NCBI GenBank assembly: GCA_031409655.1
Contig: JANNXQ010000078.1
Span: forward strand, 1 to 64,000
Direction: 5' to 3'
From: Chthoniobacteraceae bacterium
GTDB lineage: Bacteria; Verrucomicrobiota; Verrucomicrobiia; Chthoniobacterales; Chthoniobacteraceae
DNA length: 64,000 nt
Positions 30,001 through 39,000 of this stretch are shown in pieces (the stretch's first letter is position 1; the number at the start of each line of letters is the position of its first letter). The position numbers are program-made.

Positions 30001-33000
30001 CTTGCTGCTCGAACGAGCGGGACTCGGCTGAGGTGGATGGCGCGCTCCGCCGCGCCATGCCAAAACTAACGCCGAAGGCCATGCAGATTGAATGGCGCTT
30101 CGCGCGATCAATGCCATGGCGCGGCGGAGCGCGCCATCCACCGAGCGTTCATTCCGAGCGTTCATTCCGAGCGTTGTTCACACCGTACAGAAATGATGTT
30201 TTATTTTTTAATCCCTAATCCTTCTTCTTAATGATTTGAACAACTCGGCGATTCCGCGCTCCACACCCGCTCCTGCATGGTTCCACGGCGACAACAACCC
30301 GCCGACAACTTCTCAGTGGAGCCGCACAGGTCGGCTTCGACCCACTTATCCCACAGGTTGTTCGGACTTGTCGGCAGCTATTGGGGAGTTGTTCGCGCCT
30401 TCGAGTGCGGGCGAAAGAAGGGGTCCACCGACCGTCTTCCAAAGCTCCCGACCAAGGGCATTCCGGGCAGCGGCCGTCTCCGCTTCTTTTTTGCTCCGTC
30501 CTTCACCTTCGCCCAGCTCGCATCCTTCCCAGACGATCTTCGCCACGAAACGCTTTTGATGCTCAGGTCCGGATTGATCGGTGATCGGATACGTCGGGCT
30601 GCGTGGGGAGATGGATTGGAGCAGCTCCTGTAGTCGGCCCTTCGGATTGGTGTCCGGCGGATCGACTTCCATTTCGTCCAGCAACTCGCGCGCTTCCGTG
30701 ATGACGATGCGGCGCACCGTCACAAAATCGCTATCGAGGTAGATCGCGCCGATGAGTGCCTCGTAGGCGTCGGAGAGCGTCGAGGGCCGTTCCCGCCCGC
30801 CGCTCGCTTCCTCGCCCCGGCCCATCATCAGGAAGCGCCCGATGCCGATGCGTTCGGCGAGCACCTTGAGTCCTTCGCGGGAGACGATGCGCGCGCGGAT
30901 CTTCGTGAGGTAGCCTTCTGGGAGAGTGTCAAATTTTTCGTAGAGATGCTCGGTGAAGATGAGCTGCAGGACGGCATCGCCGAGGAATTCGAGACGCTGA
31001 TTGTCAAAGTGATGACGCTGCGTCTCATGGCCGAGACTCGGGTGCGTGAGGGCTTCGGCGAGCAACAGCGAATTGCGAAACTTGTAGCGAATGCGGGATT
31101 CCAGGGGATTCATTAACTTTTCACCTCATAGCATCTCCGCGCCGGAGATGCTTTGAAAAATCACCCGCGACTCCTGGAAAGTCGTGCGGCGGCGCGGGCT
31201 AAGAAGAGCGCCTCTCCCAAGGTGGACAAACCCGTCTGGTCGCGGAGGATTGCAATTGCGCCACGCCCACCCACCTTCCCACCCGTGAACTCTGGCTCCC
31301 CCAGTCGTCCTCACCTTACCGCGGCTCTGCTGGCGCTCTTGTTCGCGAGCGTGCCGCTCGTGGGCGGACTCATCTGGGCCCAGCGGCTCGAGCGGCGCCA
31401 CGTCCACGATCTCATCGCGGATTTTTCGGATCCAAAGTTGCACGGGGTCGCGCTCCAAAAGCAGGCCTTCGCGCAGGATGATCTGCTCGTGCTCTACGGC
31501 AGCTCCGAGCTGGTGAAGCAGGTGCCCAACACGGCGGGCGAATTCTTTGAGGACTATCCCACCGGTTTCCGCGTCTTCCCCGTCGGCAAACAAGGCACCA
31601 CGGCGCTGGCGGTTTTGCAAAAACTCGCGGCCGTCGGCACCGATCTGCGCGGGCGCAAAGTGGCGATCTCCCTTTCGCCGAGTTCGTATTTCGCCGAGGA
31701 GGTCGATCCCGGCTACTACGCAGGAAATTTCTCCACCCTGCAGGCCACGGAACTGGCCCTCAGCACCGAGCTGAGCCGCCCGCTGAAGGCGGCCTCTGCC
31801 CGCCGCATGCTCGAATATCCGAAGACCTACGAGGACAATTGGCTGCTCGAAACGCTGCTTCGGCGTCTCGCCGGCGACACTCCCGGGGATCGCGTCCTCT
31901 ACACCGCACTGGTTCCGCTGGCGCAGCTCCAACGCGGGATCGGGCGGGTGCAAGACCACTTTGAAACGGCCGGCCATATCGCGGATCTCCGCTCGGAACC
32001 AGCGCGGACCAAGCGACCCCGCGTGTTGAACTGGAAGGATATTTTTCGGCGCGCCGAAGTGATCGCCAAGGCAATGAAGGCAAAGGCGCGGAAAGTGCCG
32101 GCCATCGCAAAACGCCCGAAAGGATCCCGCGACAAACTTTTCCTCCAGAATCTCGCGCGTGCCGATGAGTGGACGGATTTCGAACTCGTCCTCCGCACCC
32201 TCGACGAACTCGGCGCCCGCCCGCTGATCCTCAGCATGCCCGTCCACGCCAGCGATCTGGAGGCGCTCGGAGTCTCCAAGGAAGCGCGCAGCGCCTACGA
32301 GGAGCGGCTGCGGGCGCTGACCGCGGAGCACGACGCGCCGCTCGTTTATTTCAAAGCGAACGAAGACGACCCGGATTTCTTCTTCGACAACCTCGACCAC
32401 CTCGGTGCGAAAGGCTGGATCTACTACAACAAGATGCTCGACGATTTCTTCCACGGACGATTAACGAACCTGTAGCCCGCTTCCTCTTCCTCCATTCCGC
32501 GCATCCAGAGGAGAGAGAGGAAGAGGTAGATTAAGAGGAAGACCCCCAACAATGACCCCCACCGACTCCACCGAAAAAATCCTCACCGTCCTCGCCGACA
32601 TCGCCGAGACCGACGAAGTGCGCACCAATCAGGAACTCGCGCTCTACGAGCTGCAGATCCTCGATTCCATGAAGACCGTGCAACTCATCGTGGCCCTCGG
32701 ACAGGAACTGGGCGTGGAGATTTCGCCCGCTGAGTTTGAGCGCGAAAGCTGGGCCACGCCGCGCAAGCTGGTCGAGGATGTCCTCCGCCGGATGGCCGCG
32801 TGAAGGCGCTCGAAGCCTGGCTGGAAGTCCATCCGCGGGCGCGCGCGGCGGTGCTGGTGACCTACTATCTGGCGATCGTGGCGGGCCTGATCGCGCTCTA
32901 TGGACGAGGTGATTTCTCCACGCCGCCGTTTGTGTACCAGGAGTTTTGAGGCGGGGAGAGAATGAACATCGAACATCGAACATCGAACCCTGAACGTCGA

Positions 33001-36000: not shown

Positions 36001-39000
36001 TCCGCTTCGCCCTCCCCTCTTACGTGCGCGATGGCCACTCGCACACCATCGAGGTGCGTCTCGCGAGCTCGAACAAAGAGCTCCGCGGGTCCCCTGAGGT
36101 CGTGACCTGCGATCGGGAGTAGAGAAGACTAGACCGTGGCCAGTGCTTGGTTTCATCTGACTCGATAGTGACTGACCACTGAATACCGACTAATAGCCAC
36201 TGACCAACCCATGGGACTGGAACTCAACACCGCACTTTTCCTCAAGCAAGCGCACGAAGACGGCTGCTCCTTCGAGCAGACGGCGACGCTCGGTCACCAG
36301 ACCTTCTTTATGCGCTGGGATGCGATGCAAAAGCACTTTCCTGCGCTCAATCCCAATGCCGGCTGGCGTTACGCGGACCCCTTCCTTGAGGCCGCCTTTG
36401 GGAGCAAGGAGGTGACCTCCTTCGATGCCTCGGACTTTGAGGGCGCGAGTGTCGTCCATGACATGAATCTGTCTGTCCCTTTGGAATGGCAGGCCCGCTT
36501 CGATGCCGTGATCGAGATGGGTTCGCTGGAGCACATCTTCAATTTTCCCGTCGCCATCCACAGCCTCATGCAGATGACGAAAGTCGGCGGCAGCCTTTTC
36601 ATCGTGACGCCGAGTAACAACTATCTCGGACACGGATTCTACCAGTTTGGTCCTGATCTCTTCCACCGACTGCTCTCTGCCGCGAATGGCTACAAGATCG
36701 AGCGATTCTACGGCTTCGAGCATCGTTACTTTGGCCCCGAGATGGGCCAGTGCGGCCCGTGGTACGAGGTGCTCGATCCGGCCCAAGTCCGCGAGCGTCC
36801 GATCGTCATCAGCGAAAATCCGATGCTGCTCATGATCCGTGCGCGTCGCGTCGAGGCGAAAACTGGGCCGCTCGTGATCCCGCAGCAGAGTGACTACTCC
36901 GCGATGTGGCAGCAAGCGGCGAGTGGCCCGACTCCGGTCGCAACGTCGCCATCCGTCCCTGGCTCCGATGGACTGAAGGCGGCTGCGCGGCGCATTCTCC
37001 AGACGAAGTTTGAAGGTCTTTATGGAAAGATCATGCACGAGCGTTTCCGTCGGCACCGTGAGGAGCAGCGTCAGACCGAGCACTCGCTCGCTGGCTCACG
37101 TTGCTTTAAGCGCACCGAGCTGCGCGGCGATTCCCCCGCGATGTAGGCACGCTATTTTTCCCCGATGCACCAGAGATGCTGGTGGGTGCGGATGAAAAGA
37201 TCGCCATCGCTCACCGCGAGCGACGCGTTTGTCAGGCCATCGCCGAGGGCGTTGACGGCGAGCATTTCAAACTGCGGAGAAGCGCGGATGACGACCGTGT
37301 CGCTGCCCTGATTCAGGACGTAGAGGCGATCCCCAGCGAGGACCATGGAAGACCACGACTCCGACTTCGCACCACTGCCCTGCAGCCGCTCCTGCCACAC
37401 CGGTTTTCCAGTCCGCAATTCGAGGCACTGGGCGATGCCGTTGGAGTTCAGGATGTAAATGTGGCCGTCCTTGATGACCCCGGAGCCGATGCGTCCCTTA
37501 TCCCGCGGCTCCTGCCACAGACGATGCGTGTCGGTCACGTCGCTCTGCCCGCCAGTCCGCACGGCGACAGTGCTACCGCCATATCCACCCATGCCGACGA
37601 CGACCCCTTCACCATGAATCGGCGAAGTGTAGATGAGTGGATTCAAGCCCCGACAGAACCAGAGCAACTGGCCGGTCTTCGGATCATAACTGCGGATCTC
37701 CTGCGGGTAGCTCATCACCAACTCGGTGCGTCCCCCGGCATTGATGACCAATGGTACGCTCCACGATCCGACCACCCCGTCGGACTTCGCGCCGAAACCA
37801 TCGTTGCGCGGCATGGTGATCTCGATTTTCGGGAAGTCCTCGCGCCAGGCGTCCCGTCCCGTGCGTTTGTCCACCGCGAGGAGGAAAGTTCGGGGGCCAG
37901 GCCCGAAGTTTAGAAAACAAAGATCACCCTCCAGCACCGGACTCGCCGAGTAACCCCATTCGTGCCGATGTTCGCCAAGATCACGATGCCAGATTTGCCG
38001 GCCATTACTATCGAAGCAGAAAAGTCCAGCCGAGCCGAACCACGCGACGACGCGTTCTCCATCGGTCACCGGCGATGCTGAGCAATAGGGATTCGTCGCG
38101 TGGCTTGGTTCCTTGGCGACACCTTTTGCGCCAGCCCGCCAGAGTTCCTTCCCGTCCGCACGCGAGTAACAGATGACCAGGCGATCGTCGCCCACGGCCT
38201 GCGTGAGGAAGACGCGGTCGCCCCAGACGATCGGCGTGGAGTTACCCCGTTCGGGCAGCGCGACTTTCCATTTCACATTTTCCGTGGCGCTCCATTTCAG
38301 TGGGATCTCGGTCTCCGTGCTGATCCCCCCTCCTCCCGCCCCTCGCCAGGCCGGCCAAGGTGCCGCGAGGGCTGTGCTGCAAGCTGCAACGAAAATAGAA
38401 ACTACAATCGCACGGAGGAAAAGGAACATAGGGAATAACTAACTATGCACTGACTTAAGCTAACTCGGAGTAACCTGCGGCCGGAAGAACACAGCGACAT
38501 GACCCACTTGCTGGACTAACTCACTTTCCGTGCGCGCCGCGATCTGTGCGGCCAGGGTCTTCCGCTCTTCCTTAAAGTCCGTGAACTTCATTTTGACCAA
38601 GCCATGCAGGGCAAGCGCCTCCGACATGGATCGGACAAAACTCTCGGTCATGCCCGCGTGCCCTAGTTTCACAGCCGGTTCAAGTTTCTGCGCGCGCGCT
38701 TTCAGATCACGCTTGGCGGCGTTGGTCAGCGGTAAGTTCATTCGTCCTCCTTCAGTTTCCCTTTTTGAATCAGACTTCGCAGCTTCGGAGTAATAACCGC
38801 ACTGCAATAAGGATTCCGATCCTTGTTTAGGTTGTAGTAGTTCTGGTGGTAACCCTCACCGGCATAGAAAATTTTCAATGGCACGATCTCGGTTACGATT
38901 GGCTCGGGAAAATCTTTTTGCGCTGCGGCCTTGGATTGTTCCGCCGCGGCCTTCTGCGCCTCATTTTCGTAAAGGATGATCGAGCGATACTGTGGCCCCG

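What a model noticed while it worked through the whole genome (the two positions that open the first line are those of the whole stretch)
31285..36122. Complete five-gene dltDCXAB D-alanylation operon, DltX included, as a lineage trait of a diderm family that has no teich [...]
dltD, dltC, a 49-aa dltX with the C-terminal FVYQEF motif, dltA and dltB form one operon in a Gram-negative bacterium without LtaS or Tag genes. It is common in Chthoniobacteraceae and nearly absent from the rest of the phylum, so an unknown envelope polymer is probably D-alanylated.
Evidence so far: Annotation. DltD in 88 of 150 family, 184 of 794 order and 191 of 4822 phylum genomes; dltD next to dltC in 136 and dltA next to dltB in 145 order genomes. 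DltA in 10 of 21 family genomes; dltX and dltC beside it in 7 of 9 relative loci. DltD in 0 of 150 other phylum genomes sampled. No teichoic-acid synthesis family.
(Added by a program. Inside this text positions count along the whole contig: contig position 1 is position 1 of the stretch shown here. "Call 12" and the like, gene names such as g00115 and contig names such as C1 are that model's own, and its searches are not shown. The text may have been shortened before it was handed on; [...] marks where a part breaks off. The agent that wrote the report below was given it as the finding of a first reader that could run no searches.)

Follow-up and report, generated by a model that had tools for sequence, protein, structure and literature searches.

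The report
D-alanine relay without teichoic acids
A group of soil and freshwater Gram-negative bacteria carries an intact copy of the five-gene machine that Gram-positive bacteria use to put D-alanine on their cell-wall teichoic acids, but lacks the genes to make those polymers, so it probably puts D-alanine on another, still unidentified envelope molecule.

Summary
Confirmed: an intact dltD-dltC-dltX-dltA-dltB operon. DltA keeps the D-alanine-selecting residues, DltX ends in FVYQEF, and the DltB and DltD catalytic residues are kept. The host makes lipid A/Kdo; no LtaS/OpgB, TagB/F, LCP or LicD was found.

Corrections: it is an order-level trait (DltD in 106/150 family, 60/300 order, 0/400 phylum genomes), also seen in 7/200 Chloroflexota. 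31/150 family genomes do hold a distant LtaS-family protein, but most dlt-positive genomes lack it. A complete dltXABCD operon with unproven acceptor is already in print for Dickeya.

New here: a clade far from Bacilli whose DltD has lost the Gln that contacts glycerol-phosphate (0/109); extra DltD paralogues beside a single DltB; and an Ig-like domain carried on DltB (48/60) or on DltD (12/150). Most likely D-alanine is relayed across the inner membrane onto a non-teichoic envelope glycan (about 0.5); the acceptor is not shown. The scan noted Dlt-like relays in diderms on other DNA before. New variant of a known kind; interest 0.55.

The parts
31285..32475 (+). dltD: SGNH-fold D-alanyl transferase with one N-terminal membrane anchor; Ser73 (GSSE), His372, Asp368 in a D-x-x-x-H spacing; Ser in place of the Bacilli Gln of SPQW
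32552..32803 (+). dltC: D-alanyl carrier protein with the DSM phosphopantetheine serine
32800..32949 (+). dltX: 49-aa membrane microprotein ending in FVYQEF (FxYxxF acyl-shuttle motif)
   Evidence: (21 bits, under Pfam cut-off 25); motif described in PMC12148441
32950..33099 (.). dltX-dltA spacer holding a long hairpin of inverted heptamer repeats; a genome-wide interspersed element, not a dlt feature
   Evidence: z -3.78; 33 pattern pairs in the genome, none in 60 relative dltX-dltA spacers
33100..34557 (+). dltA: D-alanine-activating ligase; Asp180, Cys252, Lys475 match B. cereus Asp197, Cys269, Lys492; 46% identical to B. cereus DltA
34644..35795 (+). dltB, MBOAT part (residues 1-384), with both histidine motifs (RWH, GVWHG)
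35796..36122 (+). C-terminal Ig/FnIII-like beta-sandwich domain of DltB (residues 385-492; Cys401 and Cys489); no Pfam family; the same domain sits on DltD in other genomes

Best explanation
A working Dlt relay puts D-alanine esters on a non-teichoic carbohydrate of the diderm envelope. DltA activates D-alanine with ATP and loads it on DltC. [quoted passage not shown] DltX hands it to Ser73 of the membrane-anchored periplasmic DltD, which esterifies a hydroxyl of a glycan tethered at the periplasmic face of the inner membrane. That glycan is most likely LPS core/O-antigen or a lipid-linked surface-polysaccharide unit in transit. The added amino groups lower surface charge and should protect against cationic peptides. 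Extra DltD paralogues share the single DltA/B/C/X supply line and probably serve other acceptors or positions; the Ig-like domain is an accessory module that may hold the acceptor. Shown: genes, residues, distribution, absence of teichoic-acid genes in this genome, domain swap. Inferred by homology: D-alanine specificity and the relay (about 0.88). Inferred weakly: a glycan acceptor, the role of the Ig-like domain, and the benefit to the cell.
For: DltA Asp197/Cys269/Lys492 equivalents are kept in 94, 94 and 93 of 94 sequences (residues defined in PMC4176424). DltD Ser is kept in 110 and His in 108 of 112, with an N-terminal hydrophobic anchor in 108 of 112. DltB RWH is kept in 70 and GxWHG in 72 of 73; FxYxxF ends 74 of 76 DltX hits. 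D-C-X-A-B order holds in 50 of 75 dltA loci. The genome has an alanine racemase and a full lipid A/Kdo pathway. Not found in it: TagB/F (1 of 150 in the family), LCP, LicD, MprF, OpgG/H/B, membrane-bound LtaS-type protein. The DltD Gln that docks on the glycerol-phosphate chain in L. plantarum (PMC13653941) is present in 4 of 4 Bacilli references and 0 of 109 others. Accessory domains fused to relatives of this DltD or sharing the DltB tail point to glycans: a ConA-like lectin domain on 2 of 150 DltDs, and the tail domain on an AlgX-type acetyltransferase and a GT2. Precedent: a Dickeya dltB mutant loses 99% viability in polymyxin, substrate unidentified (PMC3544676), LPS proposed (PMC5541007).
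Against: No acceptor gene clusters with the operon: across 40 family loci no glycan-synthesis gene recurs, and only scattered glycan-active neighbours appear among 56 scanned (40 neighbours; 69 neighbours). LPS is general in the phylum while dlt is confined to one order, so LPS presence predicts nothing. The Ig-like fold is generic (best Z 7.7, no Foldseek E<0.001) and also occurs on non-glycan proteins (TPR, radical SAM). It is missing from 12 of 60 DltBs. In Dickeya a dltD mutant is as resistant as wild type (cited in PMC5541007), and PMC11035591 argues that DltB, not DltD, may be the final transferase. The Bordetella dra target is protease-susceptible (title of Taneja 2013, seen in a reference list). 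The DltD Asp is shifted one place (D-4 in 106 of 136 representatives, no Asp in 22), and a few homologues lack the His. The Gln argument rests on docking and on 4 references.
Confidence: 0.5

Rival explanations
1. The same relay esterifies a membrane lipid head group (phosphatidylglycerol, cardiolipin, a glycolipid, or lipid A itself), standing in for MprF.
For: D-alanyl-PG was found in B. subtilis, also in an mprF mutant, and ascribed by hypothesis to Dlt (PMC4792211). No MprF was found in this genome. DltD is membrane-anchored. An ordinary lipid acceptor needs no linked genes, which fits the housekeeping neighbourhoods.
Against: Loss of the Gln that contacts glycerol-phosphate speaks against a glycerol-phosphate head group too. 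Lectin-like and Ig-like add-ons and several DltD paralogues per genome are easier to explain with a larger, varied acceptor. The lipid link in B. subtilis was not tested with dlt mutants in the section read.
Confidence: 0.2
2. The acceptor is an envelope protein, glycoprotein (for example PEP-CTERM/exosortase substrates) or peptidoglycan.
For: [quoted passage not shown] The genome has an exosortase system with a WecG/TagA-family glycosyltransferase. Ig-like modules often bind proteins (own knowledge).
Against: All characterised MBOAT/SGNH pairs act on glycans or polyol-phosphates (PMC12148441). No surface-protein or peptidoglycan gene is linked to the operon.
Confidence: 0.12
3. These bacteria make a cryptic teichoic-acid-like polyol-phosphate polymer with a distant LtaS-family enzyme, and Dlt decorates it as in Firmicutes.
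For: Full-length LTA-synthase-family proteins (3-5 predicted TM segments, ES motif, conserved Thr) occur in 31 of 150 family genomes: 27 of 106 DltD-positive and 4 of 44 DltD-negative (kin are not independent).
Against: 79 of 106 DltD-positive genomes lack it, including all 4 of this genus and all 22 of genus g10. TagB/F passes its cut-off in 1 of 150. The DltD Gln is lost. Such proteins are common in Gram-negatives.
Confidence: 0.08
4. The operon carries a different small amino acid (Gly, D-Ser), or is a decaying relic.
For: Met201 of the DltA pocket is His in 22 of 94 sequences. About 30% of family genomes have no DltD.
Against: The window's DltA keeps all eight pocket residues compared. The frames are intact, codon GC is native, and the genes are kept across 7 families and have multiplied.
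Confidence: 0.1

Closest known systems
Dlt pathway (DltX, A, B, C, D) of Firmicutes: D-alanylation of lipoteichoic acid
   Same: All five components; NCBIfam cut-offs met for DltA (subfamily model), B, C and D; D-alanine pocket, carrier Ser, MBOAT histidines, FxYxxF motif, SGNH Ser/His.
   Different: LPS diderm host without LtaS, TagB/F or LCP; gene order D-C-X-A-B (other families C-D-X-A-B) instead of X-A-B-C-D; DltD 20-28% identical to Bacilli, on a long branch, with D-x-x-x-H and no Gln; Ig-like tail on DltB; extra DltD paralogues.
dltXABCD of Dickeya/Pectobacterium (and Photorhabdus)
   Same: Five-gene set in a Gram-negative, conserved across a genus (10.1101/568105), tied to polymyxin resistance, substrate unidentified (PMC3544676).
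   Different: Here the trait spans an order of free-living bacteria. No enterobacterial Dlt sequence was fetched, so whether the two share an origin was not tested. In Dickeya dltD is reported dispensable for resistance.
Bordetella pertussis dra locus
   Same: D-alanine added to an outer-membrane component of a Gram-negative, giving resistance to antimicrobial peptides (review passage).
   Different: Target described as protease-susceptible; gene content and sequences were not compared here.
MBOAT/SGNH O-acetylation pairs (PatAB, AlgIJFX, WssHIFG)
   Same: Tyr-shuttle chemistry on envelope glycans (PMC12148441); the DltB tail domain also occurs on an AlgX-type protein.
   Different: They use acetyl-CoA, have no carrier or ligase, and carry the motif on the MBOAT itself.

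Membership tests
Dlt pathway | DltA ligase with D-alanine-selective pocket (Asp197, Cys269, Lys492 of B. cereus) | tested here: met
   PRK04813 574/476; Asp180, Cys252, Lys475; residues from PMC4176424
Dlt pathway | DltC carrier with phosphopantetheine serine | tested here: met
   PRK05087 79.9/68, TIGR01688 72.4/52.35; DSM motif
Dlt pathway | DltB MBOAT with the two active-site histidines | tested here: met
   TIGR04091 419.6/375; alignment to 8JEM; His289/His336 from PMC11035591
Dlt pathway | DltX microprotein with C-terminal FxYxxF | tested here: met
   FVYQEF at the C-terminus of a 49-aa hydrophobic ORF; Pfam score 21, under the cut-off of 25; motif in 74 of 76 relatives
Dlt pathway | DltD SGNH nucleophile Ser and catalytic His | tested here: met
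   TIGR04092 150.7/150; Ser73, His372
Dlt pathway | Triad Asp in D-x-x-H spacing | tested here: inconclusive
   Position -3 is Asn; invariant Asp at -4 and -1 among 10 aligned; D-4 in 106 of 136 representatives. Geometry not examined.
Dlt pathway as teichoic-acid D-alanylation | Host makes LTA or WTA (LtaS, TagB/F, LCP, LicD) | tested here: not met
   None found in a 94.9% complete genome; one WecG/TagA-family gene sits in an exosortase locus
Dlt pathway as teichoic-acid D-alanylation | DltD Gln of SPQW, proposed to contact the glycerol-phosphate chain | tested here: not met
   4 of 4 Bacilli references, 0 of 109 others; role from docking in PMC13653941
Dlt pathway | D-alanine esters formed in vivo on an identified acceptor | not testable with these tools
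   needs chemistry on cells
Enterobacterial (Dickeya-type) dlt | Common ancestry with Dickeya/Pectobacterium Dlt proteins | not tested
   no enterobacterial Dlt sequence came up and none was fetched

The most novel reading that the evidence does not exclude
A non-Firmicute Dlt clade shared by Chthoniobacterales and Chloroflexota D-alanylates an undescribed class of envelope glycopolymer. One DltA/C/B/X supply line feeds several DltD paralogues with different acceptor specificities, and a mobile Ig-like module on DltB or DltD recognises the acceptor. D-alanylation would then be a general envelope modification of abundant soil and freshwater bacteria, not a teichoic-acid speciality.
Probability: 0.25. 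Interest if true: 0.8.

Novelty: new variant of a known kind. Interest (0 to 1): 0.55.

Why it matters
What Dlt modifies in bacteria without teichoic acids has been open since the Dickeya and Bordetella reports. Here the pathway is fixed across much of an order of free-living Verrucomicrobiota, and sequence changes in DltD point away from glycerol-phosphate. That gives a non-pathogenic system, plus natural variants (with or without the tail, one or several DltDs, whole genera with or without dlt), in which the acceptor can be sought. The one-supplier, many-transferase layout and the domain that moves between DltB and DltD extend the recently solved Tyr-shuttle mechanism.

Tried and rejected
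Neighbourhood search for an acceptor pathway: 40 family loci, 20 loci of other order families, 11 Chloroflexota/other loci and 78 metagenome loci were read, and selected neighbours were scanned. Nothing glycan-related recurs. Serine-hydrolase (PF00144) genes flank dlt genes in 5 loci (L063, L066, L185, L188, L198), but the two tested resemble class C beta-lactamases and D-peptidases, with no DltE or FmtA among the hits shown. Six LtaS-like candidates picked in the own genome by a TM-plus-motif rule were false on reading their sequences (ABC transporters, a sensor, a dehydratase and others). The 112 sulfatase matches are soluble sulfatases; none had two or more TM segments before the domain. 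The Wzx/Wzy glycan cluster 7 kb upstream is not seen beside dlt in relatives' flanks. The hairpin between dltX and dltA is a genome-wide repeat. No sigma-70 promoter match. Complex prediction of DltD with the DltB tail: no verdict. Expression: no RNA holder listed. ESM Atlas gave only leads under 0.9. Cluster look-ups gave no taxa for the tail-bearing DltDs. A metagenome scan with one of them found nothing, and the alignment scan returned no DltD with the tail in frame. Fold searches gave only generic Ig/FnIII matches. The trees do not resolve donor or direction: deep nodes are weak and only 4 Bacilli root them. Two key papers were not held: Pandin 2016 and the 2023 DltX mechanism paper (DOI recalled).
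Full report
Observation. Five genes on the + strand fill 31285-36122: dltD, dltC, dltX, dltA, dltB. DltD, DltC, DltB and DltA (subfamily model) pass NCBIfam cut-offs; the DltA equivalog model is missed by under one bit. DltX is under the Pfam cut-off (21 against 25) but ends in FVYQEF, overlaps the dltC stop and recurs in place in relatives. The operon follows rnc divergently, has the genome's GC content and shows no sign of an island.

Are the parts functional? DltA is 46% identical to B. cereus DltA and has Asp180, Cys252 and Lys475 where that enzyme has Asp197, Cys269 and Lys492. These are kept in 94, 94 and 93 of 94 relatives; Met201 is His in 22 of 94, not in the window. 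PMC4176424 (passages) names Cys269 as a determinant of D-selectivity. DltB aligns to solved DltB over residues 2-383; its two histidine motifs are kept in 70 and 72 of 73 sequences (residues from PMC11035591, passages). FxYxxF ends 74 of 76 DltX hits, found with a profile built from family members; PMC12148441 (passages) describes that Tyr as the shuttle between DltB and DltD. DltD keeps Ser in 110 and His in 108 of 112 sequences (25 of 137 were dropped as short or duplicate) and has an N-terminal hydrophobic anchor in 108 of 112. Two things differ from Bacilli. The Asp lies four residues before the His in 106 of 136 cluster representatives with a readable motif (three before in 8, none in 22; 14 of 150 unreadable). 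The Gln of SPQW, which docking places on the glycerol-phosphate chain in L. plantarum (PMC13653941, passages), is in 4 of 4 Bacilli references and 0 of 109 others.

Distribution. DltD was found in 106 of 150 family genomes and 16 of 29 genera, mostly whole genera with or without it; DltB in 97 of 150. In the order, 60 of 300 genomes in 7 of 16 families have DltD. In an even phylum sample 0 of 400 pass the cut-off; in a class sample of 300, DltB passed in 5, all in the order. Source names place relatives in Chthoniobacteraceae/Chthoniobacterales. Of 75 genome loci with dltA, 50 read D-C-X-A-B, 7 D-C-X-A, and 12 show dltA without the small genes beside it (some of these contigs are also among my earlier loci). 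In G073 the operon is split over two contigs, not lost. Four other families use C-D-X-A-B and one C-X-A-B with a convergent dltD. Close relatives also lie in records titled Chloroflexota, Anaerolineales and Bacillota, and 7 of 200 further genomes of the Chloroflexota record's phylum have DltD, some with paralogues. In trees all these sequences stand far from four Bacilli references, the family forms one clade on DltA+DltB (support 1.0), and Chloroflexota/environmental sequences fall among the order's families with weak deep support. Donor and direction are unresolved.

One supplier, several transferases. DltB is single-copy in 96 of 97 genomes, while at least 15 of the 106 DltD-positive genomes have two to five dltD genes (counted by hand; 14 matches were not listed). 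They stand alone or in tandem, keep Ser and His and form long-branched lineages. I infer that they draw on the same DltX and differ in acceptor or position.

An extra domain. DltB has about 105 residues beyond the MBOAT, with no Pfam match, present in 48 of 60 DltBs and nowhere else in this genome. It folds as a beta-sandwich (pLDDT 86) of generic Ig/FnIII type (best Z 7.7, rmsd 3.4, 85 aligned). The same domain sits at the C-terminus of DltD in 12 of 150 cluster representatives, twice in tandem in 4; 2 others carry a ConA-like lectin domain. Among 37 longer proteins hit with it, 30 are DltB-type; the rest include an AlgX-type acetyltransferase, a GT2, an Ig-rich surface protein, repeat proteins, a TPR protein and a radical SAM protein. 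Its place on DltD and its Cys pair suggest it is periplasmic (inference). The hosts of the tail-bearing DltDs could not be named. Binding to a glycan is a guess.

What could be the acceptor? The genome (94.9% complete) has lpxA, B, C, D, K, L, kdsB and waaA, an ArnT-like protein and peptidoglycan genes, and no hit to OpgC, G or H. Not found: TagB/F, OpgB (29), LCP (94), LicD (95), MprF (97). Its many sulfatase-family proteins are soluble. One WecG/TagA-family gene lies beside exosortase EpsH/EpsI. Family-wide, TagB/F passes in 1 of 150. They cannot supply the acceptor in most dlt-positive genomes. No glycan pathway is linked to the operon; single cases include polysaccharide deacetylases after dltB in two loci and a GT2-deacetylase-GH18 fusion in one.

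Mechanism. Most likely DltA, DltC, DltB, DltX and DltD relay D-alanine to the periplasmic face of the inner membrane (about 0.88, by homology). I put the acceptor at 0.5 a glycan (LPS core/O-antigen or a lipid-linked surface unit), 0.2 a lipid head group (PMC4792211, abstract and Discussion), 0.12 a protein or peptidoglycan, 0.08 a cryptic polyol-phosphate polymer; 0.1 is left for another amino acid or decay. Charge masking against cationic peptides is inferred from Firmicutes and Dickeya. Evidence against the DltD step: Dickeya dltD is reported dispensable, and PMC11035591 favours direct transfer by DltB.

What is known. dlt genes in Dickeya, Pectobacterium and Photorhabdus, with polymyxin sensitivity of a dltB mutant and an unidentified substrate, are in PMC3544676 (passages). 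PMC5541007 (passages) cites LPS as the probable target; 10.1101/568105 (one passage) calls dltXABCD ancestral in Dickeya; PMC4079955 (table passages) lists the Pectobacterium genes; PMC4448142 (passages) mentions Bordetella dra. Nine searches, judged from their listings, showed no paper on dlt in Verrucomicrobiota or Chloroflexota, on DltD paralogues of this kind or on the tail domain. The library lacks most subscription papers; Pandin 2016 and the 2023 DltX mechanism paper were not held, and their figures or supplements may already list these taxa. No supplements were read. Earlier notes of this scan describe Dlt-like relays in other diderms, several with other loading enzymes (unchecked); none matched this DltD by sequence.

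Verdict. A real, intact Dlt system: a member by protein family, not a teichoic-acid system by host. New variant of a known kind. Interest 0.55: precedent in Dickeya lowers the surprise; the order-wide spread, the altered DltD, the paralogues and the moving domain make the open question of the acceptor testable.

Noticed in passing
window 2047-24124 (mostly - strand): Surface-polysaccharide cluster: GT2s, UDP-galactopyranose mutase, Wzx flippase, O-antigen ligase/polymerase-like protein, cytidylyltransferase, epimerase, AT3 acyltransferase, GT9 and at least eight methyltransferases, three of FkbM type. It suggests a heavily O-methylated glycan.
   Followed up: partly
window 32950-33099: Hairpin of inverted heptamer repeats; the pattern pair was counted 33 times in the genome (two counts overlap), so it is an interspersed REP-like element.
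   Followed up: yes
window 36211-37146: Co-oriented methyltransferase-like gene right after dltB (weak Methyltransf_23 hit); not seen beside dlt in 40 family loci.
   Followed up: partly
G000 whole genome: 112 sulfatase-family matches, many in tandem arrays.
   Followed up: no
L321-L335 (family genomes): An uncharacterised LTA-synthase-family membrane protein in 31 of 150 family genomes; product unknown.
   Followed up: partly
L063, L066, L185, L188, L198: Serine-hydrolase (PF00144) genes next to dltD or dltC, recalling DltE/FmtA D-alanine esterases; two tested are closer to class C beta-lactamases and D-peptidases.
   Followed up: partly
L159:7476-9560: Chloroflexota DltB (694 aa) with a Thr/Pro-rich linker and a different, roughly 250-residue C-terminal domain.
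   Followed up: no
L130, L189, L190: DltDs with GSCE and Asp in place of the catalytic His, inside complete C-D-X-A-B operons: altered chemistry or inactive.
   Followed up: no
L078:5140-8991 (G000:C195): The genome's second MBOAT lies convergent to a GT2 and an ArnT-like gene.
   Followed up: no
window 40573-42047: Two tandem thymidylate-kinase-family genes; a gene of the same cluster, next to gidA, lies beside dlt in L061.
   Followed up: no
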